Source of the DNA: Candidatus Omnitrophota bacterium
GTDB taxonomy: Bacteria > Omnitrophota > Gorgyraeia > Gygaellales > Profunditerraquicolaceae
DNA length: 64,000 nucleotides
Assembly (NCBI GenBank): GCA_026387335.1
Contig: JAPLLX010000002.1
Coordinates: 13,326-77,325 of the forward strand
Reading direction: 5' to 3'
The position numbers and the translations under genes are program-made. The notes beneath the pieces were generated by a model. The model saw only the letters and a program-made list of their open reading frames with translations. It was not told where the DNA came from and searched no databases. This document shows, in pieces, positions 508 to 52,916 of this stretch. The number at the start of each line of letters is the position of its first letter. Positions within the stretch are counted from its first letter, which is position 1.

Positions 508-559
508 ATCCCCTTACAAGCAAGCCATAACATAGAACCGTCCCTATTGTTAATTAATA

Positions 560-1110: not shown

Positions 1111-1983
1111 ATGCCTATCTGTCAAGCAAAAAGGGGTATGAGATACGAGCAAAATAGAACTCGTCATTACGAGGAGCGTTACATTTCGTCATTGCTTTAC
1201 TCACTACGCTCGTTCGCAATGACTGGTTTTCTCATTTCACTGGCTGCTTTAGCCCAAGCTGAGGTAACTGCTTCTTATTGGCAGACCAGCAAATCCCAGC
1301 ATTTTATAATTTATTATCAGGAAGCCCCCGCCGGATTTGTTGACGAGCTTATTAATAAAGCCGAAAACTATTATAACGGCATTGTTGATGAATTAGGCTA
1401 CCGGAGGATGGATTTCTGGAGCTGGGATAACCGCGCCAAAATCTATCTTTATAAAAATGCCGATGATTTTCATACCGATACCCAGCGTTCTGCCTGGGCA
1501 GGAGCGGTAGTCTCGGTGCGTAACCGAATAATGAAAACTTTTGTCGGGCAAGAACATTTTTTTGACTCATTGCTACCACATGAGATGACGCACATTATAT
1601 TCCGGGAGTTTATCGGAGTAAATACTCCGTTGCCTCTTTGGATTGACGAAGGTGTAGCCAGTTCTCAAGAGAAAAGTAACCTTTACGCGCGTATGCAGAT
1701 AGCTAAGGACCTGGTCGCCAAAAACCAGTATATTAAACTGGATAAGTTTTCGGAAATAAGCAAGCCCGGAGAGGATACTGTCGCGCCGGATATTTTTTAT
1801 TCAGAGGCGGCGTCCCTGATTGTTTTCCTTATCCGGGACAAAGGAAGAGAACGCTTCCTGGATTTTAGCCGCTCCTTACGCGATGGGATAGATTGGAAGA
1901 GCGCCTTATTAAAGACTTATAATTTTTTGACTCTGGAAGAATTGGAGAAGGAGTGGAAAAATTATATGCTAAAAAATAAATAG
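1111..1983 (+). CDS. Secreted MA-clan zinc metallopeptidase-like protein (HExxH...E)
   Basis: HEMTH (HExxH) followed by IDEGVA (a downstream Glu), the gluzincin pattern. A signal-peptide-like segment MTGFLISLAALAQA suggests the true start may be the ATG at 1219 (or 1138). The stop TAG is the first triplet of REPIN copy 1. Confidence 0.45.
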   Translation: MPICQAKRGMRYEQNRTRHYEERYISSLLYSLRSFAMTGFLISLAALAQAEVTASYWQTSKSQHFIIYYQEAPAGFVDELINKAENYYNGIVDELGYRRMDFWSWDNRAKIYLYKNADDFHTDTQRSAWAGAVVSVRNRIMKTFVGQEHFFDSLLPHEMTHIIFREFIGVNTPLPLWIDEGVASSQEKSNLYARMQIAKDLVAKNQYIKLDKFSEISKPGEDTVAPDIFYSEAASLIVFLIRDKGRERFLDFSRSLRDGIDWKSALLKTYNFLTLEELEKEWKNYMLKNK

Positions 1984-2046
1984 GGACAGCGACCGTTTTT
2001 TCTGGTCGCTTCGCTTAAGAGAAAAATGGTCGCTGTCCCTATTTAT
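1979..2046. repeat. REPIN copy 1: 64-68 bp perfect palindrome AATAGGGACAGCGACC(A/G)TTTTT...AAAAATGGTCGCTGTCCCTATTTA
   Basis: Arms of 22-24 bp, reverse-complementary, read directly from the sequence. It flanks the RAYT gene on the left. Confidence 0.9.
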
Positions 2047-2124
2047 GTTCTTTGATAAAATATCTTAGTTAGATTCCCTTATTTCTGGCGTCTATTAATA
2101 GTAGAGGAAAGGAGGGAAACTAAC

Positions 2125-2832
2125 ATGCCTAGAATTGCCAGAGTTGTAGCGATAGGTCAGCCTCACCATATTACGCAAAGAGGTAATTACCAGCAAGAGG
2201 TGTTTCTTAGCGCGGATAACCGAAAACAATACCTTGCCTGGATTAATGAATATAGCGTAAAATACGGGGTTTCTATTTTGGCCTATTGCTTAATGCTAAA
2301 CCATGTTCATTTTATCGCTGTTCCTTATGAAAACGACTCGTTGGCTAAAACATTTAACACCGCCCATATGCGTTATGCCCAGTATCTTAATAAAAAATTG
2401 AAGCAGCGCGGGCATCTTTGGCAGGGACGTTTTTATTCCTGTGTATTGGATCAATCTCATCTTATACTTGCCGCTCGTTATATTGAAAGGAATCCTGCGC
2501 GCGCCGGTATTGTAGATAAACCTTGGCAGTGGTTATGGTCAAGCGCCGCCTTACATACGGGCAGGGAGAATGACGGGTTGATTAAATTAGGGGATCTTTT
2601 CAGAATTATAGATATGTCAAGCGTCTCGTGGGAGAAATACATTGATTCCGCGGAAGAGGACAATTTTTTACAGAATATAAGAAAGCATACATACGCCGGT
2701 CGTCCCCTCGGGGCGCCGGAATTTACTACAGATTTAGAGGAAAAATGCGGTAGAAGGCTATGCGCGCTGCCGATAGGAAGACCAAGAGTATTAAATAGGG
2801 ACAGCGACCGTTTTTCTGGTCGCTTCACTTAA
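2125..2832 (+). CDS. rayT: REP-associated tyrosine transposase (RAYT; COG1943 IS200-like HuH-Y1 transposase)
   Basis: HuH motif LNHVHFI. GHLWQGRFYS and RYIERNPARAGIV (catalytic Tyr-x3-NP) plus the WSSAAL tail match my memory of the COG1943/Y1_Tnp consensus. Strong RBS AGGAAAGGAGGG precedes the ATG. The ORF 3' end reads into REPIN copy 2 (tail ...LNRDSDRFSGRFT is the REPIN translated), so the native C-terminus is uncertain. Confidence 0.8.
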   Translation: MPRIARVVAIGQPHHITQRGNYQQEVFLSADNRKQYLAWINEYSVKYGVSILAYCLMLNHVHFIAVPYENDSLAKTFNTAHMRYAQYLNKKLKQRGHLWQGRFYSCVLDQSHLILAARYIERNPARAGIVDKPWQWLWSSAALHTGRENDGLIKLGDLFRIIDMSSVSWEKYIDSAEEDNFLQNIRKHTYAGRPLGAPEFTTDLEEKCGRRLCALPIGRPRVLNRDSDRFSGRFT

Positions 2833-2859
2833 GAAAAAAATGGTCGCTGTCCCTATTTA
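2794..2859. repeat. REPIN copy 2 (right flank of RAYT)
   Basis: Same palindrome as copy 1; loop variant CTGGTCGCTTCACTTAAG. Confidence 0.9.
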
Positions 2860-2872
2860 ATTATAAGGAGGA

Positions 2873-3754
2873 TTGATGCCGCAGGAGATAAACATCCTGG
2901 TTTTTGAAGATGATCTGACCGCAGCCGGCCTGTTGGAGTCTGCCCTTAAATCCGCGGGTTACCGCGTCTGGATGGCAACAACCGCGCGCGAAGCGCTGGA
3001 TTTATTGCGGGCTAACACCTTTCCGGTAGCAATCGCTGAGCTGCGTTCTTCCAAAATGAACGGCATTCAGTTCACTCAGGAAGTGCACAAGATATCTCAG
3101 GGCACGAATGTATTGGTTATCACGCTTTATTCTTTTATCAATTCCGCGATTGAGGCCATGGAAGCCGGAGCCTACGGTTATATTACCAAGCCTTTGAACA
3201 GTTCAGAGATACGTATTGTGGTTGAGCGGGCGGCAGAAAGGTTTTTCCTTCTTTCGACCAGCGATGAAAAGGACTATTTTGTGGATTTAGCTGTGCGCGA
3301 CGGGCTCACTGGGCTTTTTAACCGCCGCTATTTCAATGAGTTAATTAATATTGAAATTAACCGGATAAAACGCTCGCCGGCCACGCTTTCCTTACTAATG
3401 CTTGACATTGACAATTTTAAAAATTATAATGATACTCAAGGCCATCCGGCGGGAGACGAGTTGCTTAAAAAAGCCGCCAAGGTCTTTAAAAATTCCGTGC
3501 GGGCGGTGGATATGGTCTGCCGCTACGGCGGGGAGGAATTTATTGTAATGCTCCCGCAGACGGCCAAGGCCGTAGCCCAGATAATCGCCGAGCGGCTGCG
3601 CGTGCAAACCGGGCTTTATTTGCCGACGACGGTCAGCATTGGTATCGCCACGCTTCCGGAAGACGCGCAAAGCGCGGAGGATTTGATTCAGAAAGCGGAC
3701 GACGCCCTTTATCAAGCCAAAAAGAGCGGCAAGAATAAATGGTGCGCGGCTTAA
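2873..3754 (+). CDS. Response-regulator receiver + GGDEF diguanylate cyclase (PleD-like). The receiver has Glu at the phospho-acceptor position
   Basis: REC: acidic pair VFEDD, conserved T (VITLY) and K (YITKP), but the Asp position reads PVAIAELRS (Glu). GGDEF domain: intact GGEEF with an RxxD I-site (RAVD) five residues upstream. Confidence 0.85.
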   Translation: MMPQEINILVFEDDLTAAGLLESALKSAGYRVWMATTAREALDLLRANTFPVAIAELRSSKMNGIQFTQEVHKISQGTNVLVITLYSFINSAIEAMEAGAYGYITKPLNSSEIRIVVERAAERFFLLSTSDEKDYFVDLAVRDGLTGLFNRRYFNELINIEINRIKRSPATLSLLMLDIDNFKNYNDTQGHPAGDELLKKAAKVFKNSVRAVDMVCRYGGEEFIVMLPQTAKAVAQIIAERLRVQTGLYLPTTVSIGIATLPEDAQSAEDLIQKADDALYQAKKSGKNKWCAA

Positions 3755-3757
3755 AAT

Positions 3758-4003
3758 ATGCGCCTGGCGATACTTGATCCTAAAAAGGCAATTTGGCAGG
3801 GGATGGCCAAGAAGGTGACTTTGCCGGCGGCCGACGGAGAAATGTGCGTACTGGATTTTCATCAGCCTTTTGTAGTCAGGCTGGCCAAAGGCAAGATAAC
3901 TTTTTCCGGTGAGAACCTTCCGGCTCGGCAGCCGGGTATTCCTATAAAAGACGGTATCGCTTTTATGCGCTCAAATTCTTTGACTGTTTTCGCCCAGACT
4001 TAA
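3758..4003 (+). CDS. atpC: F-type ATP synthase epsilon subunit (N-terminal beta-sandwich only; C-terminal helical hairpin absent)
   Basis: LAILDPKKAIWQGMAKKVTLPAADGEMCVLDFHQPFVVRLAKGKITF matches the epsilon N-domain pattern (V..V..P...GE.GIL..H.P....L..G.I). 81 aa. Confidence 0.5.
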   Translation: MRLAILDPKKAIWQGMAKKVTLPAADGEMCVLDFHQPFVVRLAKGKITFSGENLPARQPGIPIKDGIAFMRSNSLTVFAQT

Positions 4004-4010
4004 ATAATAT

Positions 4011-4223
4011 ATGTCCACATTCGCCTTAATTCTAGTTATGATTTTAAGCACTGCCGGCCCGGCCGCGGTCATTGCCCTGGTGGGTTTTTCCGCGGTCAAG
4101 TCCATAGCGCGTAATCCTTCCGCCTCCCCCAAAATATTCATAGTCATGATCTTGGCTTTTATTTTTTCAGAAGCGATCGCGATTTTGGCGCTTCTGATTT
4201 TATATAATCTTTTTACCAAGTAG
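4011..4223 (+). CDS. atpE: F-type ATP synthase c subunit (proteolipid)
   Basis: Two-helix hairpin, 70 aa, polar loop ARNPSAS, and a carboxylate in helix 2 (FSEAIAILAL). Confidence 0.6.
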   Translation: MSTFALILVMILSTAGPAAVIALVGFSAVKSIARNPSASPKIFIVMILAFIFSEAIAILALLILYNLFTK

Positions 4224-4230
4224 AGGAATA

Positions 4231-4294
4231 AATAGGGACAGCGACCATTTTTCCCTGGTCGCCTAGACAGAAAAATGGTCGCTGTCCCTATTTA
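4231..4294. repeat. REPIN copy 3
   Basis: AATAGGGACAGCGACCATTTTTCCCTGGTCGCCTAGACAGAAAAATGGTCGCTGTCCCTATTTA. Sits between atpE and the b-delta gene inside the ATP synthase operon. Confidence 0.9.
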
Positions 4295-4302
4295 AAAACA
4301 CT

Positions 4303-5016
4303 ATGCTCGTCCAGCTTTTAGCCATCCAGATAGTCACTTTCATAGCCATTATATTTTTATTGCGTTTTCTTTTCTCGCGCCATCTTAAGGTCGCCTTGGA
4401 TAGGCTGAATACCTTGCATGAAGAAAACCTGGCCAAAGAAGAAGAGCTGAATGAGGAGTTGAAAAGGGCCAAAGAAGAGAGTCAGGCGGAAATAGAAAAA
4501 GGCAAAGAAGAGGCCGAGGTCATTATTGAAGACTCTAAAAAAGAAGCCACGCGGATACGCTTAACCCTTGAAGAAGAGGCCAAGGCCCAAGCGGCCAAGA
4601 TCGTCGCTATGGGTAAAGTTGATGCCGAGAAAATGAAGGAGAGTGTGTCCAGGGATATACAAGGCCAGAGCGTGGAATTGGCCTCCAGAATGATCTCCGA
4701 GCTGCTTATTGAAGCGGATAAAGTTGCCCTGCAATACCAGTTTGCCAATGAGATAATCGCAGAGATTGCCCGCCTGCCCAAAGAGCAGTTTAACGTCCAG
4801 GCCAAAGACATAAAAGTCACCTCCAGTTATCCTTTGCTGGACAGGCAAAGAGACGAGTTACAAAAGGTTTTAGGCGAAAAATTAGAGGGGGCCTTTAAGA
4901 TCAAAGAGCAGATAGACCCCAAGCTTATCGGAGGGCTCATCCTGGATATAGGCGGTATGGTTATTGACGGGACCTTAAAGAACAAGCTGCAAAGAATCAT
5001 TCCTTACCTTAAATGA
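4303..5016 (+). CDS. atpFH: ATP synthase b-delta fusion protein
   Basis: N-terminal TM helix plus a long charged coiled coil (b-like). The C-terminus IDPKLIGGLILDIGGMVIDGTLKNKLQRI matches the conserved delta/OSCP C-terminal motif (IDPSLIGG..I.IGD.VIDGS....L). 237 aa. Confidence 0.55.
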   Translation: MLVQLLAIQIVTFIAIIFLLRFLFSRHLKVALDRLNTLHEENLAKEEELNEELKRAKEESQAEIEKGKEEAEVIIEDSKKEATRIRLTLEEEAKAQAAKIVAMGKVDAEKMKESVSRDIQGQSVELASRMISELLIEADKVALQYQFANEIIAEIARLPKEQFNVQAKDIKVTSSYPLLDRQRDELQKVLGEKLEGAFKIKEQIDPKLIGGLILDIGGMVIDGTLKNKLQRIIPYLK

Positions 5017-5030
5017 CACAAAAATAAAAT

Positions 5031-6491
5031 ATGAAAGTTGGCGCGTTAGACATAAGGGAAGTCGGCAGAATAGAAGAGCTTAAGCAGGGGATTGTGAAGA
5101 TCAGCGGCCTGCCGAATTGTTCTTACGGGGAAGTCATTGAGCTGGAAAACGGGCTCAAGGGGATGATCATTGAATTTAACCCGGAATACGCCTTTGGCGT
5201 TGTTTTCGGCGATGAGCGTAAAATCAAAGTCGGTGATACAGTCTCCAGCCGCGGCGGCCTGCTGAATGTCCCGGTGGGAGACGGGTTTATCGGCCGGGTG
5301 GTGAATTCTCTGGCCCAACCTATTGACGGAAAAGGCAAGATCGAGGGATCCGAATTCCATCCGGTTTTTCACGAAGCAGCCGGGGTCATGGAGAGGGAGC
5401 CCATAGACCAAACCTTGCACACCGGAATAAAAATAATTGATATGCTCGTCCCTTTAGGCAAGGGCCAGCGCGAACTTATCGTCGGAGACCGTCAGATAGG
5501 CAAGACCTCCATCGGCCTGGATACGATAATCAACCAGAAAGGCAAAAACGTAATTTGCATATATTGCTGGATAGGCGGAAGTTCCGCCGCCTTTAATAAA
5601 ATAATTCAAACTCTGCGCCAGCACGGGGCAATGGATTATGTCTTAGGAGTTTGCGCTTCGGCCGGCTCAGCCACATCTGAACAATATATCTGCCCTTACA
5701 CCGCCGCCGCGCTGGGCGAATATTTTATGAATAGCGGCAGGGATGTTTTGGTCATATTTGATGACCTGACCAAACACAGCTGGGTCTACCGGCAGATGTC
5801 CCTGCTTCTTGAACGCGCTCCGGGAAGAGAGGCCTATCCCGGCGATATATTCTTCCTGCATTCGCAACTTATGGAACGGGCCGGAAGGCTAAAAAAAGAA
5901 TTTGGCGGCGGCTCAATGACCTTTCTGCCTTTTGCCGAGACGCTGCAGGGGGATATTACCGGTTATATCTGTTCCAATATAGTCTCCATGACCGACGGGC
6001 AGATTTACTTAAATACGGGTTTGTTCCAGGAAGGTTTTAAGCCGGCCATAGACCTGGAGCTCTCGGTTTCGCGTATTGGAAGCAAGGTGCAGTGCCCGGC
6101 AATCCGGGCTTTAAGCGCGGGCCTGCGTTATGAATATGTGCGTTTCCGTTCACTCTTGCGGCTTACGCGTTTAAGAACCAAGCTTAGCCCGGAAGCAGCC
6201 GAACAATTGCAGCGGGGCAAGGCCCTGTATGAACTTTTAATCCAGGAGAATAACTCGCCTATTTCTCAGGCCGAAGAGATCGCTGTTTTTTACGCTTTTC
6301 ACCAAAAGATACTGGAGGCCATAGGAATAGAGCAGGTCAGGTATTTTAAAAATAATTTTTTCTCTTATCTATCCAGCCATAACGGCGAACTCGTTGACCA
6401 GCTTAATACAAGAGGGGAACTGAGCGAAGATGTGAAGATGCAGCTGGATAAGGCGATAAAAGAATTTTTCCGCAGCTCTAAGATAGGATAG
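5031..6491 (+). CDS. atpA: ATP synthase alpha subunit (divergent)
   Basis: GRVVNSLAQPIDGKG; Walker A GDRQIGKTS; overall F1-alpha architecture. The nucleotide-binding region is unusually Cys-rich (CIYCWIGGSS). Confidence 0.85.
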   Translation: MKVGALDIREVGRIEELKQGIVKISGLPNCSYGEVIELENGLKGMIIEFNPEYAFGVVFGDERKIKVGDTVSSRGGLLNVPVGDGFIGRVVNSLAQPIDGKGKIEGSEFHPVFHEAAGVMEREPIDQTLHTGIKIIDMLVPLGKGQRELIVGDRQIGKTSIGLDTIINQKGKNVICIYCWIGGSSAAFNKIIQTLRQHGAMDYVLGVCASAGSATSEQYICPYTAAALGEYFMNSGRDVLVIFDDLTKHSWVYRQMSLLLERAPGREAYPGDIFFLHSQLMERAGRLKKEFGGGSMTFLPFAETLQGDITGYICSNIVSMTDGQIYLNTGLFQEGFKPAIDLELSVSRIGSKVQCPAIRALSAGLRYEYVRFRSLLRLTRLRTKLSPEAAEQLQRGKALYELLIQENNSPISQAEEIAVFYAFHQKILEAIGIEQVRYFKNNFFSYLSSHNGELVDQLNTRGELSEDVKMQLDKAIKEFFRSSKIG

Positions 6492-6493
6492 AA

Positions 6494-6875
6494 GATTGCG
6501 TCATTGCGAACCCCGCCTATGGCGGGGTGAAGCAATCTCTGAATATGAGTAATAAAGCAGGTTTTGTTTATCTTATGACAAACAAAATGAATACGGTAAT
6601 TTATACAGGAGTTACAAGCGACCTTCAAAAAAGAATTTATGAACATAAAGAAAAATTAGTTGATGGTTTTACTAAGAAATATAATGTTAATAGATTAGTT
6701 TATTACGAGATATTTGATGGTATAGAAGATGCAATCACAAGGGAAAAACAAATTAAAGCGGGTTCGCGGAAGAAGAAGTTAGATTTAATTAGTTCTATTA
6801 ACCCTGATTTCAAAGACCTTTATTATGAATTATGAGATTGCTTCGGCTGCCTGCAGCAGCCTCGCAATGACGCAA
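6494..6875. mobile_element. Small GIY-YIG cassette bounded by about 45-bp terminal inverted repeats, inserted between atpA and atpG
   Basis: Left end GATTGCGTCATTGCGAACCCCGCCTATGGCGGGGTGAAGCAATCTC (6494-6539). Right end GAGATTGCTTCGGCTGCCTGCAGCAGCCTCGCAATGACGCAA (6834-6875). The TTGCGTCATTGCGA and GAAGCAATCTC blocks are reverse-complementary between the two ends, and each end also carries its own internal palindrome. The interior is AT-rich. Confidence 0.7.
6545..6835 (+). CDS. GIY-YIG domain nuclease (small standalone, YhbQ/UPF0213-like)
   Basis: GFVYLMTN...VIYTGVTSDLQKRIYEH gives the GIY/YIG beta-hairpins plus a conserved Arg and Glu. The ORF track starts at 6527, inside the left TIR; the ATG at 6545 is more plausible. 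Confidence 0.7.
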   Translation: MSNKAGFVYLMTNKMNTVIYTGVTSDLQKRIYEHKEKLVDGFTKKYNVNRLVYYEIFDGIEDAITREKQIKAGSRKKKLDLISSINPDFKDLYYEL

Positions 6876-6886
6876 AGGATAAATAA

Positions 6887-10733
<3,847 letters not shown>

Positions 10734-10735
<2 letters not shown>

Positions 10736-10797
10736 ATAGGGACAGCGACCATTTTTTCCTGGTCGCATAGATAGAAAAATGGTCGCTGTCCCTATTT
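10734..10797. repeat. REPIN copy 4
   Basis: Begins at the pilB stop codon. AATAGGGACAGCGACCATTTTTTCCTGGTCGCATAGATAGAAAAATGGTCGCTGTCCCTATTTA. Confidence 0.9.
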
Positions 10798-10812
10798 ATT
10801 ACGGAGAAATAA

Positions 10813-12051
10813 ATGATATTTTTATACAAAGCCAAAAAGAGTTTAAATGAGATAGTTGAAGGTAGATTAGAAAAGGATAGCGTTGAGCAGGTTATTGAAG
10901 AGCTGCAGTCAAAAGGCCTGGTTCCGGTTTCTGTTGAGCCGCAAGAGATAAAAATCGCCCCAGATTCGCCCGCAGAAGCGACGACCGTCAAGAAGCCGGT
11001 TTTAAGGTTTAGGAGCGGGAAGTGGGGGTTAAAACAGCTGGTCCTCTTTACGCAAAAATTATACAACTTGATAAACTCCCGCGTGGAGTTACTCAGCGCC
11101 CTTAGGCTTTTAGAGAAAAATTGCGAAAACCCGACGGAGAAGGCGCTCTTAGAAGATATCATCAAGAATATTAAGGACGGCATAGCTTTTTCCGGGTGCC
11201 TTAACCGTTATCCGCAGTATTTTCCCCAGCTTTACGTCCACATAATACATACCGGAGAGACCACCGGTAAATTAAAAGAGGCGCTGTCGCAGCTTTTGGA
11301 TTACTTGCGCCGGGTCGAGGATTTAAAGAGTAAAGTCAAACAGGCGCTGGCGTATCCGATATTTATGACCGTCGTCGGTATAGGCACGATCTGCGTTATG
11401 CTGACTTTTGTCCTTCCGCGCCTGGCGAGTATGTTTGACGATTACAATGCCCAGCTCCCGATGCCTACGCTCATTTTACTTAATACCGCGGGGTTCGTTA
11501 AACATTACTGGTTGTTCATCGCGGCATTTTTTATTTTTCTTATTTTTGTCCTCAAGTTTAGCTCTCAAGGGAAAGAAAGCTTCTTCTCGCGGTTAAAATA
11601 CCACATTCCGATAGCCAAAGATATCGTTTATAAGCAGTCAGTGGAAAATTTCTCAAGAAGCATCGCCCTGCTTTTACAAAGCGGAGTTACACTTCTTGCC
11701 GCGCTTAAAGATGCCGCCTTTGTTATCGGTAATCCGGTTTACATTGAACAGCTGGAACAGGTGCGTAAGGATATCAGCGAGGGCGGCACCTTCTCCGGAT
11801 CGCTGGCAAAATTCAAGATATTTCCGGATTTTTTTGTGCAGATGATCCGTGTCGGAGAAGAGGGCGGAAGGCTGGACCAGGTGCTTTTGGATATAGCCGA
11901 TTCCTACGAGAAGGATATCGAAGCTGACCTGAAGGTAGTCAGTTCCCTTATTGAGCCGGCGATAATATTAGTCCTGGGTTTGGTCATCGGAGGCATGGTC
12001 ATTGCCATGCTTTTACCGATATTTAATATGAACAGCCTTTTCGGCAGCTAA
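10813..12051 (+). CDS. pilC: Type II secretion / type IV pilus inner-membrane platform protein (GspF/PilC family)
   Basis: Two T2SSF repeats, three TM helices, characteristic length of 412 aa. Confidence 0.85.
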   Translation: MIFLYKAKKSLNEIVEGRLEKDSVEQVIEELQSKGLVPVSVEPQEIKIAPDSPAEATTVKKPVLRFRSGKWGLKQLVLFTQKLYNLINSRVELLSALRLLEKNCENPTEKALLEDIIKNIKDGIAFSGCLNRYPQYFPQLYVHIIHTGETTGKLKEALSQLLDYLRRVEDLKSKVKQALAYPIFMTVVGIGTICVMLTFVLPRLASMFDDYNAQLPMPTLILLNTAGFVKHYWLFIAAFFIFLIFVLKFSSQGKESFFSRLKYHIPIAKDIVYKQSVENFSRSIALLLQSGVTLLAALKDAAFVIGNPVYIEQLEQVRKDISEGGTFSGSLAKFKIFPDFFVQMIRVGEEGGRLDQVLLDIADSYEKDIEADLKVVSSLIEPAIILVLGLVIGGMVIAMLLPIFNMNSLFGS

Positions 12052-12109
12052 TTAATAGGGACAGCGACCATTTTTTTCTGGCCGTTTAGATAAAAAAAAT
12101 GGTCGCTGT
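12044..12109. repeat. REPIN copy 5 (variant loop CTGGCCG)
   Basis: Overlaps the pilC stop TAA. AATAGGGACAGCGACCATTTTTTTCTGGCCGTTTAGATAAAAAAAATGGTCGCTGTCCCTATTTA. Confidence 0.9.
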
Positions 12110-12121
12110 CCCTATTTAAAT

Positions 12122-13495
12122 ATGAAAACAAAAGTAATAATAGAGCTTTCCGAGCGCTGGCTTAAAGTCACGATTGGCCGCAAGGTTTCTGTTGATCCTA
12201 TATTGAACACAGACCCGGCGACAATAGCCGCGTTATTAACTTCAGTTTTTAAGCAGAGTAAATGCGGCAAGGATCTGGAAGTCTTTGTGGTTTTAAGCCG
12301 CAACAAAATAACCGTGCGCCGCGTCGACCTGCCTTCGCAAGACCCCAAAGAAATCGAGCAGATGCTTGGGCTCTATCTTATCCGTCAGATCCCGTATCAT
12401 AAAGAAGAGGTTTTCTGGGCCTATCAGAATTTGGGTTTTGACGGGATAAGCAACAGCCATATACTCTTGGCTATAGCCCTAAAGAATATGTTCAGGAACA
12501 TCGTGACTTCGTTTGGGCCGCTGAATCTGTTACCTGAATCTATATTGATGAGCTCTCAAGGGTTGATCCATTATGTTTCCGACGCGCTTAAAGATAAGAG
12601 CGTTTTACAGGGGCCGTATTTAATACTGGATATAGATACTAATTACAGCGAGCTGATCCTGGTCAACAAGCAAAAATTAAATTCCAGCGTAGTCCTGGCC
12701 CAGGGCGCCGAGCAATTGAAAGATGAGCGGGAAAAAGACAGGTTTATTGTTGAGCTTAAGCAGGGTTTGGTGGCCTTTAATAGCGAGGTCCCCGACGTAA
12801 AAGCGGAGAGACTCTTTTTAAGCGGAGCCTCAGAAGCTCAGCTGGTTATTGTGGAAGCAGCTTTAGCCAGGGACTTTAATATAAAGGCGCAATATGTCTC
12901 GACAAAGGATTATGATAGTTTTAACCCGGGTCAGCCCAAAGAGCTTTCGCTTTCAGCAGCGCTGGGTTTTAGCTCCCAGGTAGCCAGAGACGATATAAAG
13001 TTCATCCTTCCGGAGTTACAGATAAAGAAGGAGATGCAGGCCAAGGCCCGCCAGCTTATGGTTTTAGGGGTATGCCTGGTTTACATATTTATTATGTTCT
13101 GCGCGATCGGCCTGGTAAGGATGGCCCAGAAACAATCTTATTCCGCCAACCTTAAGGCTAAAGTAAAGAGCCTGGCTAAGGATACGCAGGAGCTGGAGGA
13201 TATAACCAATAAGCTTAAGGTGGCCAAACAATATGTAAACCCCAAGGCTTCTGTCCTTACGTTGCTTTATGAACTTTCTCGCTTTTGCCCCGAGGGTATA
13301 ACCATCACAAATTTCAACTGGGAATTGGGAAAGACTTTTTCTTTCCGGGGCTACGCGCAACAAATTCCGGATATATTGGCATTCACCAATACTTTGAGCA
13401 ATTCCGAATATTTTAAAGGCGCGCAAAACCGTTATACCCGCAGGCGTACCGTCAAAGACAGGGAGATGGTTGATTTTGAAATCGTAATTAAATAG
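12122..13495 (+). CDS. PilM-like (actin/FtsA-like) domain fused to a PilN-like transmembrane plus periplasmic segment
   Basis: About 300-aa N-terminal cytoplasmic domain, then a single TM helix LMVLGVCLVYIFIMFCAIGLV, then about 130 aa more. The position directly after pilC fits pilM/pilN. Family assignment is by architecture, not strong motifs. Confidence 0.45.
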   Translation: MKTKVIIELSERWLKVTIGRKVSVDPILNTDPATIAALLTSVFKQSKCGKDLEVFVVLSRNKITVRRVDLPSQDPKEIEQMLGLYLIRQIPYHKEEVFWAYQNLGFDGISNSHILLAIALKNMFRNIVTSFGPLNLLPESILMSSQGLIHYVSDALKDKSVLQGPYLILDIDTNYSELILVNKQKLNSSVVLAQGAEQLKDEREKDRFIVELKQGLVAFNSEVPDVKAERLFLSGASEAQLVIVEAALARDFNIKAQYVSTKDYDSFNPGQPKELSLSAALGFSSQVARDDIKFILPELQIKKEMQAKARQLMVLGVCLVYIFIMFCAIGLVRMAQKQSYSANLKAKVKSLAKDTQELEDITNKLKVAKQYVNPKASVLTLLYELSRFCPEGITITNFNWELGKTFSFRGYAQQIPDILAFTNTLSNSEYFKGAQNRYTRRRTVKDREMVDFEIVIK

Positions 13496-13555
13496 GGACA
13501 GCGACCATTTTTCTGGTCGCTCAGCTAAGAGAAAAACGGTCGCTGTCCCTATTTA
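13492..13555. repeat. REPIN copy 6
   Basis: Its first triplet TAG is the stop of the PilMN ORF. Loop variant with AAAAACGG. Confidence 0.9.
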
Positions 13556-13562
13556 AAATAGA

Positions 13563-23988: not shown

Positions 23989-24279
23989 GTGGATTGGGAT
24001 AAGGTTACGCAGGAAAAGCTTAAAATCATTGTCTCTAAGATCCCTGTTTTTCACCGCCATATTACCGAGCAGGCAGTGACTAAAGGGGCGCAAGAGCATG
24101 CCGCCAGAAGGAATTCCGCTAAGATAGAGGAGATAGATGTGATTAACGCCTTCTTCTCGGATGTCCCGGCCGCTTTTTACAGTATGATGGTCAGGCTCCT
24201 GGAGCAAAACGGGTTTGATTATAAAAAATACGGTTTTCCCAAAAATAGGGATGGGAGAACCGTCCCTGGAAAGTTATGA
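23989..24279 (+). CDS. Small PCP_red-like domain protein (protochlorophyllide-reductase BchB C-terminal-like domain)
   Basis: W..V...L...KIPVFHRHITEQAVTKGAQEHAARRNSAKIEEIDVINA resembles my recollection of the PF08369 pattern (W..A...L..iP.F.R......E..A...G...I). GTG start. This is family recall, not a computed hit. Confidence 0.35.
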   Translation: MDWDKVTQEKLKIIVSKIPVFHRHITEQAVTKGAQEHAARRNSAKIEEIDVINAFFSDVPAAFYSMMVRLLEQNGFDYKKYGFPKNRDGRTVPGKL

Positions 24280-32142: not shown

Positions 32143-32171
32143 ACACCCGGCCCTATCGGATGGGCCGGTGT
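32143..32171. repeat. Conserved hairpin D copy 1 (ACACCCGGCCC-TATCGGAT-GGGCCGGTGT), possible operon-end terminator
   Basis: 7-bp GC stem with an 8-nt loop immediately after the SDR stop. A covarying copy is at 62428-62455. Confidence 0.5.
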
Positions 32172-33198: not shown

Positions 33199-34107
33199 AT
33201 GATTATTGACAGCCATAGCCATTGGTTGCCGGAAGGCATAATCAACAACGCTCATTTTTATCATAAGGGTTGGGGTGATATTGAGGCTCAACTTAAGATG
33301 ATGGATGAGGCAGGAATTGATAAGGCGGTTTTGTCATATCCGACAACCGACGCGCACCTAAAGTTGGGCAGTATATCCGAAGTCGTGCGCATATTTAATG
33401 ACCATGTCGGCAAAATCATTCAAATTTATCCGGATAGGTTTATCGGCGCGGCGATCCTCCCGATAGATCACCAACCGGATATGCTTAAAGAGCTAAAACG
33501 CGCGACCGAAGAATTAGGTTTTAAGGCCGTGTCTCTAGCGACCAGTTACGCCGGAATTTATTTGGACGACGCAAGATTCCTGGAAGTATACAAGATCGCG
33601 CAAAGCCAAAACTTGCCGATTTTTGTACACTCACAGATTGTAAAACCGATAGGCAGCGAGCGCGTAGAGGACCCGTTGCTTACGCCGGTGATTGAATATG
33701 TCTTTGATACGACGATGTGCATAGGCAAACTCTTAATGGCGGATATTTTACGCGATTATAAAGTGAAATTTATCTTTGGTTACTTTGGCGGAGTAACGCC
33801 ATTCCTGGCGAATAGATTTGACGCGACCTATCAGATGCTGCGAGGAATGAATTTTGTTAAGGATTTAGGAGCTAACCCCAGCGAATACTTAAAAAATATT
33901 TATGTGGATACCAGCGGAGATAAGACGCAAGCGAATTTCTCGGCGGCGCTGGAATTATTAGGGCCCAAGCATATTTTATGGGGGAGCGACTGGCCGGCGA
34001 AGAAAGACATCGCTACAGGAATCCAAGCAGTCAAAAACTTAGCAATATCCGATGCGGATAAAAATAATATTTTAGGCGGTAATTTAGCTAGTATATTAGC
34101 TCTTTAA
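33199..34107 (+). CDS. Amidohydrolase-2 family (PF04909) metal-dependent hydrolase/decarboxylase
   Basis: N-terminal IIDSHSHWLPEG (HxH metal ligands); TIM-barrel length; the ...WGSDWP Asp near the C-terminus. Confidence 0.65.
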   Translation: MIIDSHSHWLPEGIINNAHFYHKGWGDIEAQLKMMDEAGIDKAVLSYPTTDAHLKLGSISEVVRIFNDHVGKIIQIYPDRFIGAAILPIDHQPDMLKELKRATEELGFKAVSLATSYAGIYLDDARFLEVYKIAQSQNLPIFVHSQIVKPIGSERVEDPLLTPVIEYVFDTTMCIGKLLMADILRDYKVKFIFGYFGGVTPFLANRFDATYQMLRGMNFVKDLGANPSEYLKNIYVDTSGDKTQANFSAALELLGPKHILWGSDWPAKKDIATGIQAVKNLAISDADKNNILGGNLASILAL

Positions 34108-34121
34108 TACTGTTATTTGAT

Positions 34122-34300
34122 ATTTCGCCTGCGGGTATTGTTCGCGCACGAAAATTTTCGCCGAGTGCTTCGGCTTACGACTCACTCCCGGAAGGACTTA
34201 CGCTAGGAAGAATTCCTCCGTTCGTCGTAATTCCTCGCACTCTTTTGCCGAAAATTTTCTAATTGTGCGCTTCACAACACCCTCCGGTAAAATATCTATA
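34122..34300. repeat. Repeat family C copy 1 (about 180 bp element with imperfect terminal inverted repeats)
   Basis: GGGTATTGTTCGCGCACGAAAATTTTCGCC ... GCCGAAAATTTTCTAATTGTGCGCTTCACAACACCC. Highly similar to 62184-62382. Confidence 0.75.
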
Positions 34301-34395
34301 ATCAATAGAATATAGGGAAACGGCTCTAAGAGTTTCCGCTTAAGTTTGAGTCCCCGTAGGGATATAAAGGTTGGTAATTAAGAATAGGAGGCTGA

Positions 34396-46692: not shown

Positions 46693-47532
46693 ATGAAAAC
46701 TTTTATACTTTTGTTTCAGTGCAGGGACCAAAAAGGGATTGTCGCTAAACTGGCGGATTTTATTTTTAAGGCCGGCGGTAATATCATTAACGCTGACCAG
46801 TATTCTACGGACCCGGCAGGCGGATATTTCTTTATCAGAGTAGAGTTTCTAATTAACGCGCCATCAGGGAAAGCTGCCCTAGAGAAGGGTTTAAGCGTTA
46901 TCGCTAAGAGCTTACAGGCGAAGTTTTCGCTCTATGATAAGGAAAAACCGCTGCGTATGGGCATATGCGTTTCTAGCCCCGGGCATTGCCTGGCGGAGAT
47001 ATTATATTTATGGAGAGAGCGGGAGTTAAACGTAGATACACCTTTGGTCATCTCTAACTTTGAGGGGCACCGGGAATTCGCCAGGCAGTATAAGGTCCCG
47101 TTTTATTTTATTCCGGCGACTAAGAATAGCCGCAGGGAAGGAGAATTATTAAAGATAGTTTCTCGAGACACTGATTTTTTGGTGCTCGCCCGCTATATGC
47201 TTGTGCTATCTAAGAAATTCCTTAACGCTTATGGCAAAGACATTATAAATATTCATCACGGGTTTCTGCCTTCGTTTAAAGGGAGTAATCCTTATGGGCA
47301 GGCGCTTAATCAAGGCGTTAAGGTGATCGGCGCGACCAGTCATTTTGTGGCTGAAAAACTGGATACTGGCCCGATTATTACCCAGGAAGTAGAATACGTC
47401 TCGCATAAAGATGCCTTAAAGGATTTGGTGCGTAAGGGTAAGAATTTAGAGAAGAGGGCATTAGTTGAGGCTATCCGCGCCTATATTGACTACCGCGTCA
47501 TTAAACACAATAATAAAACCATAGTCTTTTAA
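46693..47532 (+). CDS. purU: Formyltetrahydrofolate deformylase
   Basis: N-terminal ACT domain (ILLFQCRDQKGIVAKLADFI), then the formyltransferase core (INIHHGFLPSFKG; HxxxD region). Confidence 0.85.
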   Translation: MKTFILLFQCRDQKGIVAKLADFIFKAGGNIINADQYSTDPAGGYFFIRVEFLINAPSGKAALEKGLSVIAKSLQAKFSLYDKEKPLRMGICVSSPGHCLAEILYLWRERELNVDTPLVISNFEGHREFARQYKVPFYFIPATKNSRREGELLKIVSRDTDFLVLARYMLVLSKKFLNAYGKDIINIHHGFLPSFKGSNPYGQALNQGVKVIGATSHFVAEKLDTGPIITQEVEYVSHKDALKDLVRKGKNLEKRALVEAIRAYIDYRVIKHNNKTIVF

Positions 47533-47594
47533 TAGGGACAGCGACCATTTTTCTTGGTCGCAGAGAAGAGAAAAATGGTCGCTGTCCCTATTTA
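47531..47594. repeat. REPIN copy 7
   Basis: Overlaps the purU stop TAA. Identical to copy 8, including the loop CTTGGTCGCAGAGAAGAG. Confidence 0.9.
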
Positions 47595-47607
47595 TAGGAA
47601 ACTAAAG

Positions 47608-48677: not shown

Positions 48678-49328
48678 ATGAGCGAACATAAGCCTAAATC
48701 TATCCAGAATATTGAAGAAAAAATGGAATCACTGGATACAAATTCATTGCGTTATCATATACTGGAGAGCGCTAAGAATTTTAAAATCTCCTGGATCGAA
48801 CTTGGGCGTTCACTTTACTCGGTATGGAAAGATAAATTATATAAGGATTGGGGTTTTAGCACGTTTGATATATATACCGCTAAAGAGATTGGAATAAGGA
48901 AACCTACGGCTATGAAGCTTCTGCGTTCGTATTATTTTCTGGAGAAAGAAGAACCGGCATATTTAAAAAATGACTATACCGAAGCAGCCAAGGTCCCCAG
49001 TTATGAGGCAGTGGATCTGTTGCGTAAGGCAAAAGATAAGAAAAACCTGGATGCGCAGGATTATTCTAAACTAAAAAAAGAAATTTTTGAGGATGGCAAA
49101 GATATCCAATCGGTAAAGCGGGATTTAACTTCTTTAATCCGGCAAAGGGAAGAGCTGGAGCCGCAAGAGGCGTATAAGAGAAGAAGGGTAGCGACCTTAA
49201 GAAGATTTATCGGCAGCTTAAAAGCGTTAAAACAGGAGGCAGAGATATCCAAATTGCTTCCCATGGCGCTTATTAAGGACGCTGGGGAGCTGATAAAGAA
49301 GATAGAAGAGCAAATTGAGAATAAATAG
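48678..49328 (+). CDS. Hypothetical protein
   Basis: ORF only; the stop TAG lies inside REPIN copy 8. Confidence 0.3.
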   Translation: MSEHKPKSIQNIEEKMESLDTNSLRYHILESAKNFKISWIELGRSLYSVWKDKLYKDWGFSTFDIYTAKEIGIRKPTAMKLLRSYYFLEKEEPAYLKNDYTEAAKVPSYEAVDLLRKAKDKKNLDAQDYSKLKKEIFEDGKDIQSVKRDLTSLIRQREELEPQEAYKRRRVATLRRFIGSLKALKQEAEISKLLPMALIKDAGELIKKIEEQIENK

Positions 49329-49387
49329 GGACAGCGACCATTTTTCTTGGTCGCAGAGAAGAGAAAAATGGTCGCTGTCCCTATTTA
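49324..49387. repeat. REPIN copy 8
   Basis: Identical to copy 7. Confidence 0.9.
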
Positions 49388-49394
49388 TCATAAG

Positions 49395-52666: not shown

Positions 52667-52749
52667 TGCCGGGAGAGGGAGTTGAACCCACATGAGCTTG
52701 CGCTCAACAGCTTTTGAGGCTGCCGCGTATGCCATTTCGCCATCCCGGC
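52667..52749 (-). tRNA. tRNA-Leu (anticodon CAA), class II with long variable arm
   Basis: Reverse complement folds as GCCGGGA / 3-bp D stem / anticodon stem GCAGC-loop CTCAAAA-GCTGT / variable stem-loop TGAGC-GCAA-GCTCA / T arm GTGGG-TTCAACT-CCCTC (one U-U mismatch) / TCCCGGC-A. No encoded CCA. Confidence 0.65.
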
Positions 52750-52816
52750 GATATTTTAATAGTTGACGCCAGTTATTTTATATTCTAAAATAGCAAAGGT
52801 CAATAGATATAATTAC

Positions 52817-52892
52817 GGGGCTGTAGCTCAGCTGGGAGAGCACTTGCATGGCATGCAAGGGGTCAGGAGTTCAATCCTCCTCAGCTCCACCA
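52817..52892 (+). tRNA. tRNA-Ala (anticodon GGC) with G3:U70 identity pair and encoded CCA
   Basis: GGGGCTG-TA-GCTC-AGCTGGGA-GAGC-A-CTTGC-ATGGCAT-GCAAG-GGGTC-AGGAG-TTCAATC-CTCCT-CAGCTCC-ACCA; the anticodon-loop centre is GGC. Confidence 0.85.
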
Positions 52893-52916
52893 AATTTTTG
52901 CGACAAGCAAAATTAA

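What the first reader, a model, noticed from the sequence alone, without database searches (positions are those of the whole stretch)
1979..2859. REPtron: RAYT tyrosine transposase flanked by two 64-bp perfect-palindrome REPINs, with six more copies in the window
The 2125-2832 ORF has the HuH (HVH) and Y-x3-NP motifs plus the GHLWQGRF and WSS blocks of COG1943 REP-associated tyrosine transposases. It is bracketed by two copies of AATAGGGACAGCGACCATTTTT-loop-AAAAATGGTCGCTGTCCCTATTTA. Six further copies occur at 4231, 10734, 12044, 13492, 47531 and 49324, making 8 in 64 kb. Each copy is itself a 22-24 bp-arm hairpin (REPIN-like doublet) whose loop carries a second partial inverted repeat (GCGACCA / TGGTCGC). 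Copies 7 and 8 are 100% identical, implying recent mobilisation.
Basis: partly seen in the sequence, partly recalled or inferred. Interest (0 to 1): 0.7.

Follow-up and report, generated by a model that had tools for sequence, protein, structure and literature searches.

The report
Y1 transposase gene with palindromic repeats
A small single-strand-DNA transposase gene in an uncultured Omnitrophota genome sits between two copies of a 62-65-base hairpin repeat that also fills six gaps between nearby housekeeping genes; it belongs to a known but little-studied class (RAYT-like genes bounded by terminal inverted repeats, "TIRtrons"), not to a classical REP/REPIN system.

Summary
There are eight 62-65-bp palindromes with 22-nt arms (16 arm matches, 0 in shuffles). 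All lie in intergenic DNA, and all have the same loop orientation. Two of them bracket an intact 235-aa HUH/Y1 ORF.

The label "REPtron with REPINs" is only partly right. The arms have no GT[AG]G foot and are not themselves hairpins. In the relatives inspected, the gene usually lies between one left arm and one right arm. In a protein-first sample, 58 of 77 homologues have such an inverted pair with a GGGAC-like core, and the arm sequence changes with protein clade. This matches the TIRtron/TIRYT class (Di Nocera 2013; probably Quentin subclass 2.1, the subclass Quentin's table maps to Bertels group 1).

The short palindromes look like internally deleted, non-autonomous derivatives: two arms plus remnants of the inner ends. 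Syntenic relatives have those gaps without this repeat. They also show intermediate states: single arms on both sides, a palindrome upstream only, or a palindrome at the 3' end.

The most likely mechanism is inferred, not shown: the Y1 enzyme acts on the snapped-back single-stranded hairpin.

Verdict: a new member of a known kind, of moderate interest.

The parts
1976..2046 (+). Palindrome copy 1 (arms 1979-2000 and 2022-2043, stem extendable to ATAAATAGGG..CCCTATTTAT). Its left arm corresponds to the ancestral left terminal inverted repeat of the gene unit. The TAG stop codon of the upstream Peptidase_MA_2 gene (1111-1983) lies inside the arm.
2047..2124 (+). Leader between palindrome copy 1 and the ATG. 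It is conserved in relatives (TTCTTTGA..TAGTTAGATT..GCGTCTATTAATAGTAGA..GGAGGG) and contains the ribosome-binding site. The simple consensus scan called no sigma-70-like promoter here.
2125..2832 (+). RAYT-like HUH/Y1 gene (TIRYT type), 235 aa. The conserved part runs to about residue 220 (..GRPR, about position 2785). The remaining codons, about 2788-2829, are non-conserved tail: 2788-2793 (VL) precede the palindrome and 2794-2829 (NRDSDRFSGRFT) are read from palindrome copy 2.
2791..2860 (+). Palindrome copy 2 (arms 2794-2815 and 2836-2857). Its right arm corresponds to the ancestral right terminal inverted repeat. It is 95% identical to copy 1 and has the same pairing of a G-variant left arm with an A-variant right arm.
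4228..4295 (+). Palindrome copy 3, between the ATP synthase c-subunit gene and the b/delta gene. It lies between the Shine-Dalgarno-like GAGG and the ATG. The orthologous gap lacks it in L225 and L001.
10732..10799 (+). Palindrome copy 4, between a T2SSE-like gene and a T2SSF-like gene. It abuts the stop codon of the upstream gene. In L001 the same gap holds a palindrome of a different family (GGGGACGGTTCT).
12054..12119 (+). Palindrome copy 5, between the T2SSF-like gene and a PilN-domain gene. The gap is only 8 nt and lacks the repeat in L001.
13488..13556 (+). Palindrome copy 6. The TAG stop codon of upstream gene 12122-13495 lies in the arm. The single mismatch is in the right arm.
47531..47595 (+). 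Palindrome copy 7, after a purU-like gene (Formyl_trans_N + ACT). Identical to copy 8.
49321..49388 (+). Palindrome copy 8, before an AMP-binding enzyme gene. The TAG stop codon of upstream gene 48678-49328 lies in the arm.

Best explanation
This is a TIRtron. It consists of a RAYT-like HUH/Y1 single-strand-DNA nuclease-ligase gene (a 'TIRYT') bounded by a pair of 22-25-nt terminal inverted repeats, (T)AAATAGGGACAGCGAC[C/T][A/G]TTTTT. It is accompanied by a family of 62-65-bp non-autonomous derivatives made of the two arms joined by about 18-21 nt left over from the inner ends of the gene unit.

Shown:
- The gene is intact.
- The arms are the gene's own ends in the relatives examined.
- The short units are lineage-specific additions in short gaps at gene ends.
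- All eight share one orientation.

Inferred:
- When the + strand is single-stranded, for example as lagging-strand template, the two arms snap back into a long stem.
- The Y1 enzyme recognises the stem and its foot, cuts at the outer edge of the arms, and rejoins. This copies or moves the short units and remodels its own ends.
- In this genome, that remodelling turned both single arms into complete palindromes and gave the protein a 12-13-aa tail.
- Once inserted inside operons, the units are transcribed and probably act as neutral or mRNA-stabilising hairpins.
For: (1) Protein.
- Pfam Y1_Tnp at 51.7 bits against a cut-off of 23.
- HUH, Tyr, GHLWQGRF and WSS are invariant in 19 and 32 homologues.

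(2) The arms belong to the gene.
- In L001, L003 and L005 the gene lies between one left arm and one right arm.
- About 10-15 further loci found through the arm show a + and a - arm 720-790 nt apart around a homologue of 42-74% identity.
- In a sample chosen by protein alone, 58 of 77 homologues (40-66% identity) have an inverted pair with a GGGAC-like core. The median gap from left arm to ATG is 38 nt, and the right arm starts at the stop codon. The arm sequence changes with protein clade.

(3) The short units are derived from the gene unit.
- The left part of the loop, CCCTGGTCGC, resembles the inner-left CCCTCAGTCG of L001.
- The right part of the loop, GCT[A/T]AAGAG, resembles the gene's 3' end, AGCTGAGAA or AACTAAGAA.

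(4) Gain and loss.
- Syntenic L001 lacks copies 3 and 5, and carries a palindrome of a different family at the site of copy 4.
- L225 has an empty atpE/atpF gap with identical flanking coding sequence.
- The two ends occur in four states: solo/solo (L001), palindrome/solo (L223), unknown/palindrome (L225), and palindrome/palindrome (the window, and independently L160).

(5) Whole units are copied. The copies fall into subfamilies {1,2}, {3,4} and {7,8}, at 95%, 95% and 100% identity.

(6) Strand specificity.
- All 8 asymmetric loops point the same way as the gene (2 x 0.5^8 = 0.008).
- GC skew is positive across the window.

(7) Placement. All 8 copies lie in the 6.4% of the window that is intergenic.

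(8) The ends are unstable in natural populations that carry an identical protein. There are tandem and truncated arm copies with a fixed outer edge and a variable inner edge, and different DNA sits just outside the right arm.

(9) Published class. TIRtrons/TIRYTs have GGGGWSAS-type terminal inverted repeats, and their repeat families occur as singles, dimers and groups (PMC3733652; PMC6006769).
Against: - No biochemical data on a TIRYT was found in the papers searched here, so cleavage, strand choice and cut site are all inferred.
- A single arm cannot fold on its own, unlike the REP and IS200/IS605 ends that Y1 enzymes are known to bind. About 90 of about 190 arms found in other genomes are solo, and hairpin recognition alone does not explain them.
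- Identical proteins sit in one fixed upstream context across the contigs read from many samples. The gene unit itself therefore behaves as a resident gene, not as a jumping insertion sequence.
- The insertion sites are not clean. The flanks next to copy 3 differ from the empty allele, so no target rule could be derived.
- Orientation bias cannot be separated from transcription, because nearly all genes are on the + strand.
- The polymorphisms at the arms come from metagenome assemblies, where repeats can cause assembly errors. Replication slippage could also produce the stutters.
- Genome-wide copy number in the source MAG could not be obtained.
Confidence: 0.7

Rival explanations
1. Classical REPtron. 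A domesticated RAYT is flanked by REPINs (doublets of REP hairpins) and disseminates them, as in Pseudomonas and E. coli.
For: - The enzyme is RAYT-like, and its best structural match is TnpAREP.
- The repeats are extragenic and are found beside the gene.
- The gene is single-copy in the window and syntenic in relatives.
- Identical proteins occupy one locus in populations.
Against: - There is no GT[AG]G tetranucleotide at the foot. The arms start (T)AAATAGGG.
- The arms are not self-complementary.
- Relatives have one arm on each side of the gene, not REP hairpins.
- NCBIfam REP_Tyr_transpos scores below its cut-off.
- The motifs NHVH / WQ / YIERNP / SS fit Quentin subclass 2.1, for which no REPs were found.
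Confidence: 0.15
2. The palindromes are primarily host elements selected for an RNA or DNA structural role, such as mRNA 3'-end protection, attenuation inside operons, or binding sites. They spread by recombination, and the Y1 gene is only a neighbour.
For: - All copies lie between co-directional genes inside operons, mostly right at stop codons.
- The hairpins are very stable.
- Five upstream genes take their stop codon from the arm.
- Copy 3 sits between the Shine-Dalgarno-like sequence and the ATG without an obvious loss of the gene.
Against: - The arm sequence, not just its pairing, is conserved across phyla.
- The arms form the ends of the Y1 gene in 58 of 77 protein-selected loci.
- There is no U-tract, and the terminator scan does not call these sites.
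- There is no Rfam match.
- Orthologous gaps in relatives lack this repeat.

This explanation is compatible with the best explanation as a secondary, exapted role.
Confidence: 0.1
3. MITEs of a DDE transposase that targets TA (IS630/mariner-like) and is encoded elsewhere in the genome.
For: - The inverted repeats are 22-25 bp, and the unit is short with no coding capacity.
- T precedes and A follows the conserved block in all 8 copies.
Against: - There is no direct duplication. The flanking T...A are complementary and simply extend the stem.
- The conserved block includes AAA/TTT, which were not part of the search pattern.
- The same arms bound a Y1 gene in many genomes.
- No DDE transposase was seen next to any copy among the neighbouring genes that were scanned.
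Confidence: 0.03

Closest known systems
TIRtrons / TIRYTs (Di Nocera, De Gregorio & Rocco 2013, BMC Genomics 14:522; probably Quentin et al. 2018 subclass 2.1, which Quentin's table maps to Bertels group 1)
   Same: - A RAYT-like Y1 gene is bounded by long terminal inverted repeats that are unrelated to GTAG REPs.
- The repeat carries the GGGGWSAS-type core. The window has AGGGACAG, 7 of 8 positions; relatives have GGGGACAG, 8 of 8.
- The repeat also occurs dispersed as singles, dimers and groups.
- The protein motifs are NHVH, WQ, YIE.NP and SS.
   Different: - Here both ends have been completed into full palindromes, and the ORF reads into one of them.
- The dispersed units are dense (8 in 64 kb) and retain inner-end remnants.
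- No HTH Pfam domain (Bac_DnaA_C, HTH_23 or HTH_28) is detectable in the C-terminal 95 aa.
- The host phylum, Omnitrophota, is not mentioned in the passages of the two papers that were read.
E. coli REPtron (TnpAREP/RAYT with REP/BIME; PDB 4ER8; Corneloup et al. 2021)
   Same: - It is the closest solved structure.
- The gene is single-copy and resident.
- The associated extragenic palindromes are presumably processed as single-stranded hairpins.
- Enzyme and repeat co-evolve.
   Different: - REPs are about 35-nt imperfect hairpins with a 5' GTAG guide sequence. Here the stem is formed by two 22-25-nt arms that are otherwise unstructured.
- The protein is about 60 aa longer and has a helical tail ending in GRPKK.
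IS200/IS605 family (IS608, ISDra2)
   Same: - The gene is bordered by sequences able to form secondary structure.
- The orientation bias is consistent with action on the lagging-strand template.
   Different: - IS200/IS605 ends are two different subterminal hairpins, not inverted repeats of each other.
- NF033573 scores 17 bits against a cut-off of 55.
- Those elements are multi-copy and occur in many contexts, whereas this gene occupies a single locus.
'Double-foot' long REPs of Quentin subclass 2.4
   Same: A long hairpin whose two ends are mirror images. [quoted passage not shown]
   Different: Those carry GT[AG]G and C[TC]AC feet and belong to a different protein subclass found mainly in cyanobacteria.

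Membership tests
HUH/Y1 transposase superfamily (Pfam PF01797) | HUH motif, catalytic Tyr and the Y1_Tnp fold | tested here: met
   - Pfam hit at 51.7 bits against a cut-off of 23.
- H60, H62 and Y119 are invariant.
- Fold matches to 4ER8, 2VHG and 2EC2.
REPtron (RAYT + REP/REPIN) | The flanking repeat has a 5' GT[AG]G tetranucleotide at the foot of a hairpin | tested here: not met
   The arms begin (T)AAATAGGGAC. No GTAG or GTGG sits at the foot of any of the 8 copies or in the logo built from 179 arms. Definition taken from PMC6006769.
REPtron (RAYT + REP/REPIN) | A REPIN is two inverted REPs, each itself a short palindrome | tested here: not met
   - A single arm has no self-complementarity.
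- The only small hairpin (GCGACCA/TGGTCGC) uses loop sequence and is absent from 29 short units of other genomes.
REPtron (RAYT + REP/REPIN) | The protein passes the curated RAYT model | tested here: not met
   NCBIfam NF047646 REP_Tyr_transpos scores 64.5 bits against a cut-off of 80, although TnpAREP is the closest solved structure.
REPtron (RAYT + REP/REPIN) | A single-copy, vertically inherited gene whose flanking 16-mer is highly repeated in the genome | tested here: inconclusive
   - There is one homologue in the window.
- The locus is syntenic in L001, L223 and L225.
- The arm occurs 16 times in 64 kb.
- The whole genome was not available.
TIRtron / TIRYT | A RAYT-like gene flanked by one pair of long terminal inverted repeats | tested here: met
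   - Relatives L001, L003, L005, L127 and L136, plus 58 of 77 protein-selected loci, have this layout.
- In the window, the outer arms of copies 1 and 2 occupy the same positions.
TIRtron / TIRYT | The repeat shares the GGGGWSAS motif | tested here: inconclusive
   - The window arm AGGGACAG matches 7 of 8 positions.
- The L003, L135 and L146 arms, GGGGACAG, match 8 of 8.
- 20 of 77 loci match fully and 52 of 77 contain GGGAC.
TIRtron / TIRYT | The repeat also occurs dispersed as singles, dimers or groups | tested here: met
   - 6 extra dimers in the window.
- Dimers and solo arms in other genomes.
- Tandem groups.
Quentin et al. subclass 2.1 of TnpAY1 | Motifs NHVH / W[EQ] / YIELNP-like / SS, and a median length of about 238 aa | tested here: met
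   The protein has NHVHF, HLWQ, YIERNP and WSS, and the family length is 222-225 aa. This was compared by eye with Table 1 of PMC6006769. The authors' HMMs were not available.
Quentin et al. subclass 2.1 of TnpAY1 | C-terminal HTH-like domain (Bac_DnaA_C, HTH_23 or HTH_28) | tested here: not met
   - Residues 141-235 give no Pfam hit, even at E<=1.
- The model shows a helical tail, but no HTH structure appeared among the fold matches.
IS200/IS605 | IS200-type TnpA, distinct subterminal hairpins at the left and right ends, and multiple identical copies | tested here: not met
   - NF033573 scores 17.1 bits against a cut-off of 55.
- The ends are inverted repeats of each other.
- There is one copy in the window, and one locus per population.
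DDE-transposase MITE | Direct target-site duplication and a cognate DDE transposase with the same inverted repeats | tested here: not met
   - No direct duplication at any of the 8 copies.
- The arms bound a Y1 gene instead.
Integron attC | GTTRRRY core sites and a nearby IntI integrase; cassette genes vary between relatives | tested here: not met
   - No GTTRRRY core in the repeats.
- The neighbours are syntenic housekeeping genes.

The most novel reading that the evidence does not exclude
Subclass-2.1 / TIRYT enzymes, so far described as having no REPs and no evidence of mobility, are active today. On this reading they nick at a fixed position at the outer edge of their 22-25-nt arms, they generate and spread hairpin-forming arm dimers on the lagging-strand template, and they continually remodel their own gene ends. 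One arm type, GGGACAGCGAC, has spread with its enzyme across several bacterial phyla.
Probability: 0.35. Interest if true: 0.55.

Novelty: new member of a known kind. Interest (0 to 1): 0.35.

Why it matters
TIR-flanked RAYT-like genes are common. Yet only three papers in the searched library use the term TIRYT, and none that was read gives biochemical data.

This locus and its relatives give a compact natural series: single arms, then a palindrome at one end, then palindromes at both ends, then dispersed 62-bp units. They also give a clear pairing of arm sequence with protein clade. Together these make specific experiments possible:
- Which strand and which base the enzyme cuts.
- Whether a stem made from two otherwise unstructured arms is the substrate.
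- Whether the C-terminal GRPKK tail reads the A/T-rich arm ends.

The locus also shows how such repeats can settle inside tight operons of a streamlined uncultured bacterium, by supplying stop codons and folding out of the way.

Tried and rejected
- **Rfam.** No family matches the palindromes at gathering or permissive thresholds. The only hits are generic hairpin-like miRNA models far below their cut-offs.
- **Terminator and promoter scans.** The palindromes are not called as terminators. Site counts equal those in shuffled sequence.
- **Single-sequence PDB search.** It found nothing relevant; a profile was needed.
- **Fetching the source contig.** Looking it up by the exact protein failed, because it is not in the assembly index. 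No genome-wide count was therefore possible.
- **Structure prediction with A1.** It was redone with A2.
- **Arm conservation across phyla.** I first read the 19-mer genome scan as showing conservation of the arm across phyla. That sample was chosen by the arm itself. The protein-first sample shows that arms co-diverge with the protein, and that only the clade at roughly 50% identity or more keeps GGGACAGCGAC.
- **Firmicutes hits.** Six hits are one conserved coding sequence, that is, chance matches. My own estimate is about 17 chance matches expected for this 19-mer in 596 Gb.
- **Loop inverted repeat as a REP-like hairpin.** Rejected as a general feature.
- **TA target-site duplication.** Rejected.
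- **Target sequence from empty sites.** The flanks are too diverged (L001) or altered next to the element (L225) to define a target.
- **How each end gained the opposite end's terminal 40 nt.** I could not work out a mechanism (see notebook, section 'unexplained').
Full report
**1. The observation**

The 22-nt arm AATAGGGACAGCGACCATTTTT matches 16 times in the window, against 0 in 100 shuffles. The matches form eight inverted pairs of 62-65 bp at 1979, 2794, 4231, 10735, 12054, 13491, 47531 and 49324.

The stems extend to about 25 bp through flanking (T)AAA/TTT(A). Five copies have perfect arms. Copies 1 and 2 have a G.T mismatch and copy 6 an A.C mismatch. As single-stranded DNA the copies fold at -25 to -30 kcal/mol, with z-scores of -9.5 to -13.

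Pairwise identity among the copies is 86-100%, with subfamilies {1,2}, {3,4} and {7,8}; copies 7 and 8 are identical. All eight lie in the 6.4% of the window that is intergenic (0.064^8 is about 3e-10).

All eight carry the asymmetric loop in the same orientation on the + strand, with TGGTCGC first. That is also the orientation of the gene and of nearly all neighbouring genes. The chance of eight independent insertions agreeing is 2 x 0.5^8 = 0.008. GC skew is positive across the whole window.

**2. The gene**

ORF 2125-2832 (235 aa) hits Pfam Y1_Tnp (E=1.2e-13, 51.7 bits against a cut-off of 23). It scores below the cut-off for NCBIfam REP_Tyr_transpos (64.5 against 80) and far below it for IS200 (17 against 55).

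It is 100% identical to an NCBI MAG protein from a Candidatus Omnitrophota bacterium, on a contig of 148,683 bp. Close homologues are nearly all 222-225 aa and cover 94% of the query.

In alignments of 19 and 32 homologues, H60 and H62 (NHVH), Y119 (YIERNP), most of GHLWQGRF (Q100 in at least 90%) and W138 and S139 (S140 in at least 90%) are invariant. The family ends at ..GRP[KR]K. The window protein instead ends ..GRPRVLNRDSDRFSGRFT. Its last 12 residues are read from the downstream palindrome and are disordered in the model (pLDDT below 50). The gene is therefore intact, not a pseudogene.

The extra C-terminal helical region gives no Pfam hit, even at E<=1. Only one homologue is present in the window.

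**3. What the relatives show**

In three homologous loci chosen by protein, the gene is not bracketed by two palindromes. These are L001 (84% identity, syntenic: Peptidase_MA_2 - gene - RR-GGDEF - ATP synthase), L003 and L005. In each there is one left arm upstream and one right arm that starts at the stop codon.

The hits are in Omnitrophota (most of them), Planctomycetota, Nitrospirota, Desulfobacterota, WOR-3, Desantisbacteria and others. In these loci:
- about 10-15 have a homologue of 42-74% identity between a + arm and a - arm 720-790 nt apart;
- 29 are short palindromes of 39-149 bp whose loops are unrelated to the loops in the window;
- about 90 arms are solo.

The logo built from 179 arms has sharp edges. 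It reads (a)AAATAGGGACAGCGAC[C/T][A/G]TTTT(t), and the AAA was not part of the search pattern.

That sample was selected by the arm, so I also took a sample selected by protein only: 80 metagenome loci at 40-66% identity. Of the 77 with usable flanks, 58 have an inverted pair with a GGGAC-like core around the gene. The median gap from left arm to ATG is 38 nt, and the right arm starts at the stop codon.

In this sample the arm sequence varies with protein clade: GGGACAGCGACC, GGGACAGACACC, GGGACAGTCACC, GGGGACGCAACCC, GGGGACACCATAC, GGGGACAGACGGGACG. Enzyme and arms therefore co-diverge. The GGGACAGCGAC type is one clade that occurs in several phyla.

**4. The published class that fits**

Di Nocera et al. 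2013 (PMC3733652) described RAYT-like genes flanked by long terminal inverted repeats instead of GTAG REPs. They named these TIRtrons, and the proteins TIRYTs. Many of the repeats share GGGGWSAS, and some genomes hold moderately abundant families of them as singles, dimers or groups.

Quentin et al. 2018 (PMC6006769) define canonical REPs by a 5' GT[AG]G at the foot of a hairpin. They found none for subclass 2.1 (NHVH / WQ / YIELNP / SS), and said that this subclass probably corresponds to the TIRYTs. [quoted passage not shown]

Quentin's Table 1 marks subclass 2.1 as Bertels group 1. Bertels et al. 2017 (PMC5581495) describe group 1 as the largest and most widely distributed RAYT group, with only modestly repeated flanking 16-mers.

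The window protein has the subclass-2.1 motifs. Its arm, AGGGACAG, matches 7 of 8 positions of GGGGWSAS, and relatives match 8 of 8. The HTH Pfam domains reported for subclass 2.1 are not detected here.

**5. The short palindromes as derivatives**

The left part of the window loops (TTTTT-CCCTGGTCGC) resembles the sequence just inside the left arm of full units: L001 TTTTT-CCCTCAGTCG, L135 TTTTT-CCCTGGGC, L005 TTTTT-CCCGGC. The right part (GCTTAAGAG or AGCTAAGAG before AAAAA) resembles the 3' end of the gene (AGCTGAGAAAA, AACTAAGAAAA). The 62-bp unit is therefore best read as left arm + inner left + inner right + right arm, that is, an internally deleted gene unit.

**6. Gain and loss**

- Syntenic L001 has no unit of this family at the sites of copies 3, 4 and 5. 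Its gaps are 13 nt and 8 nt at two of them. At the third there is a palindrome of a different family, GGGGACGGTTCT.
- L225 has coding flanks identical to the window around the c-subunit / b-delta gap, but the gap is empty. L225 reads ..AAGTAAACCCGAGGCATACCCGATG.. and the window reads ..AAGTAGAGGAAT[unit]AAAAACACTATG...
- The gene's own ends exist in several states among syntenic relatives. L001 has solo arms on both sides. L223 has a full palindrome upstream, with an extra partial right arm, and a solo arm downstream. L225 has a full palindrome at the 3' end with a read-through 252-aa ORF. The window has full palindromes on both sides.
- A distant relative, L160 (48% identity, different arm sequence), independently has full palindromes on both sides.

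**7. Behaviour in populations**

The contigs that could be read for two identical proteins (P0115 and P0016, 24 contigs each, from many samples) all show one and the same upstream gene. The gene unit is therefore resident, as a domesticated RAYT would be.

The ends, however, vary between samples. One left arm in one sample is replaced by arrays of full and truncated left arms in another. These arrays all start at the same outer position, (A)CATAAATAGGG, and stop at different inner positions. One right arm is replaced by tandem right arms, by a re-duplicated 3' half of the gene plus a right arm, or by stutters that all end at ..TATTAC. Different DNA of 160-240 nt sits immediately outside the right arm.

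This fits repeated site-specific nicking and rejoining at the outer edge of the arms. Replication slippage or assembly errors at repeats could mimic it.

**8. Mechanism (inferred)**

The known chemistry of the family is that of HUH/Y1 enzymes of IS608, ISDra2 and E. coli TnpAREP: they cleave and rejoin single-stranded DNA next to a hairpin (PMC3479197, PMC8266576). On that basis, the most likely model is that the two arms of a short unit snap back on the transiently single-stranded + strand. The enzyme then binds the stem and its A/T-rich foot and cuts at the arm's outer edge.

The uniform orientation and the positive GC skew agree with action on the lagging-strand template, but the effect of transcription direction cannot be separated from this. 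Solo arms, which cannot fold, remain unexplained by this model. They may be decayed ends; several are followed by -35-like TTGACA boxes or by truncated gene starts.

**9. Effect on the host (inferred)**

The units sit inside operons of housekeeping genes: ATP synthase, type II secretion or pilus genes, a purU-like gene, and an AMP-binding enzyme gene. The arm start TAAATAG supplies the stop codon of five upstream genes.

The units have no U-tract and are not called as terminators. There is no Rfam match. A role as mRNA-stabilising hairpins, as documented for REPs, is possible but untested.

**10. Verdict**

It is wrong in family, because this is a TIRtron with arm dimers, not a REPtron with REPINs.

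It is a new member of a known but barely studied class. The useful extras are the series of end states, the protein-first evidence that most relatives carry GGGAC-type arms co-varying with the enzyme, and the hints of ongoing end processing.

Noticed in passing
window 50889-50965 and 56252-56328; solo-like arms near 527-545 (-) and 24250-24270 (-): A second palindromic repeat family of 77-79 nt, with two copies 95% alike: TTAGGGACGGTTCTCAAGC..GTGTCCCC-loop-GGGGACAC..GAGAACCGTCCCTAA. It shares the AGGGAC start with the main family but has no cognate Y1 gene in the window. The same core (GGGACGGTTCT) occurs in many of the fetched loci (L001, L025, L048 and others). In L001 it fills the gap orthologous to window copy 4.
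   Followed up: partly
window 4220-4305: Copy 3 lies between the Shine-Dalgarno-like GAGG and the ATG of the ATP synthase b/delta gene. The relative L225 has GAGG 8 nt before the same ATG and no insert. If the hairpin folds, the GAGG and the start codon are brought back to about 12 nt apart, which may be why the insertion is tolerated.
   Followed up: partly
window 34108-34307 and 62198-62373 (also the hairpin CACCCGGCCCTATCGGATGGGCCGGTGT at 32144-32171 and 62428-62455): A third repeated intergenic element of about 170-200 nt, internally an imperfect inverted repeat. There are two copies 80-84% alike, downstream of an amidohydrolase gene and of murJ, and upstream of an unknown ORF and of a uvrC-like gene. 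No Rfam match was found for the copy that was scanned (34100-34420).
   Followed up: partly
window 52667-52749 (-) and 52817-52889 (+): Two divergently oriented tRNA genes, the only Rfam gathering-level hits in the window. The mechanical ORF 52763-53839 (TTG start) overlaps the + strand tRNA, so its true start must lie further downstream.
   Followed up: no
L005 15172-15807 (GCA_026387405.1): A second, distant Y1_Tnp gene (about 29% identity), 4.5 kb from the TIRtron. It is flanked by a direct repeat, CCAGACCCGCGGTGGA, rather than by inverted arms.
   Followed up: no
L001 1-6078 (JGI 3300027921): The syntenic relative carries genes typical of a diversity-generating retroelement (bAvd, an RVT_1 reverse transcriptase, and a 1536-aa protein), plus a GIY-YIG gene, upstream of the shared locus. 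Most of these are absent from the window at that position.
   Followed up: no
L027, L036, L050, L056, L106, L111 (Peptoniphilus, Anaerococcus, Lachnospiraceae and others): The 19-mer arm pattern also matches one conserved, apparently coding, sequence in Firmicutes (..GACAATGACTTTAGGGACAGCGACTATTTTGAGTCAAC..). There is no partner arm and no A-run. This is taken as a chance match, not the element.
   Followed up: partly
window 1979-13553 versus the rest: Six of the eight copies lie within 11.5 kb of the gene. For the six non-flanking copies, the chance that at least 4 fall in the first 13.5 kb is about 0.02, a post hoc figure. L223 also has three palindromes within 1.8 kb upstream of its gene. 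This may indicate local spread.
   Followed up: partly
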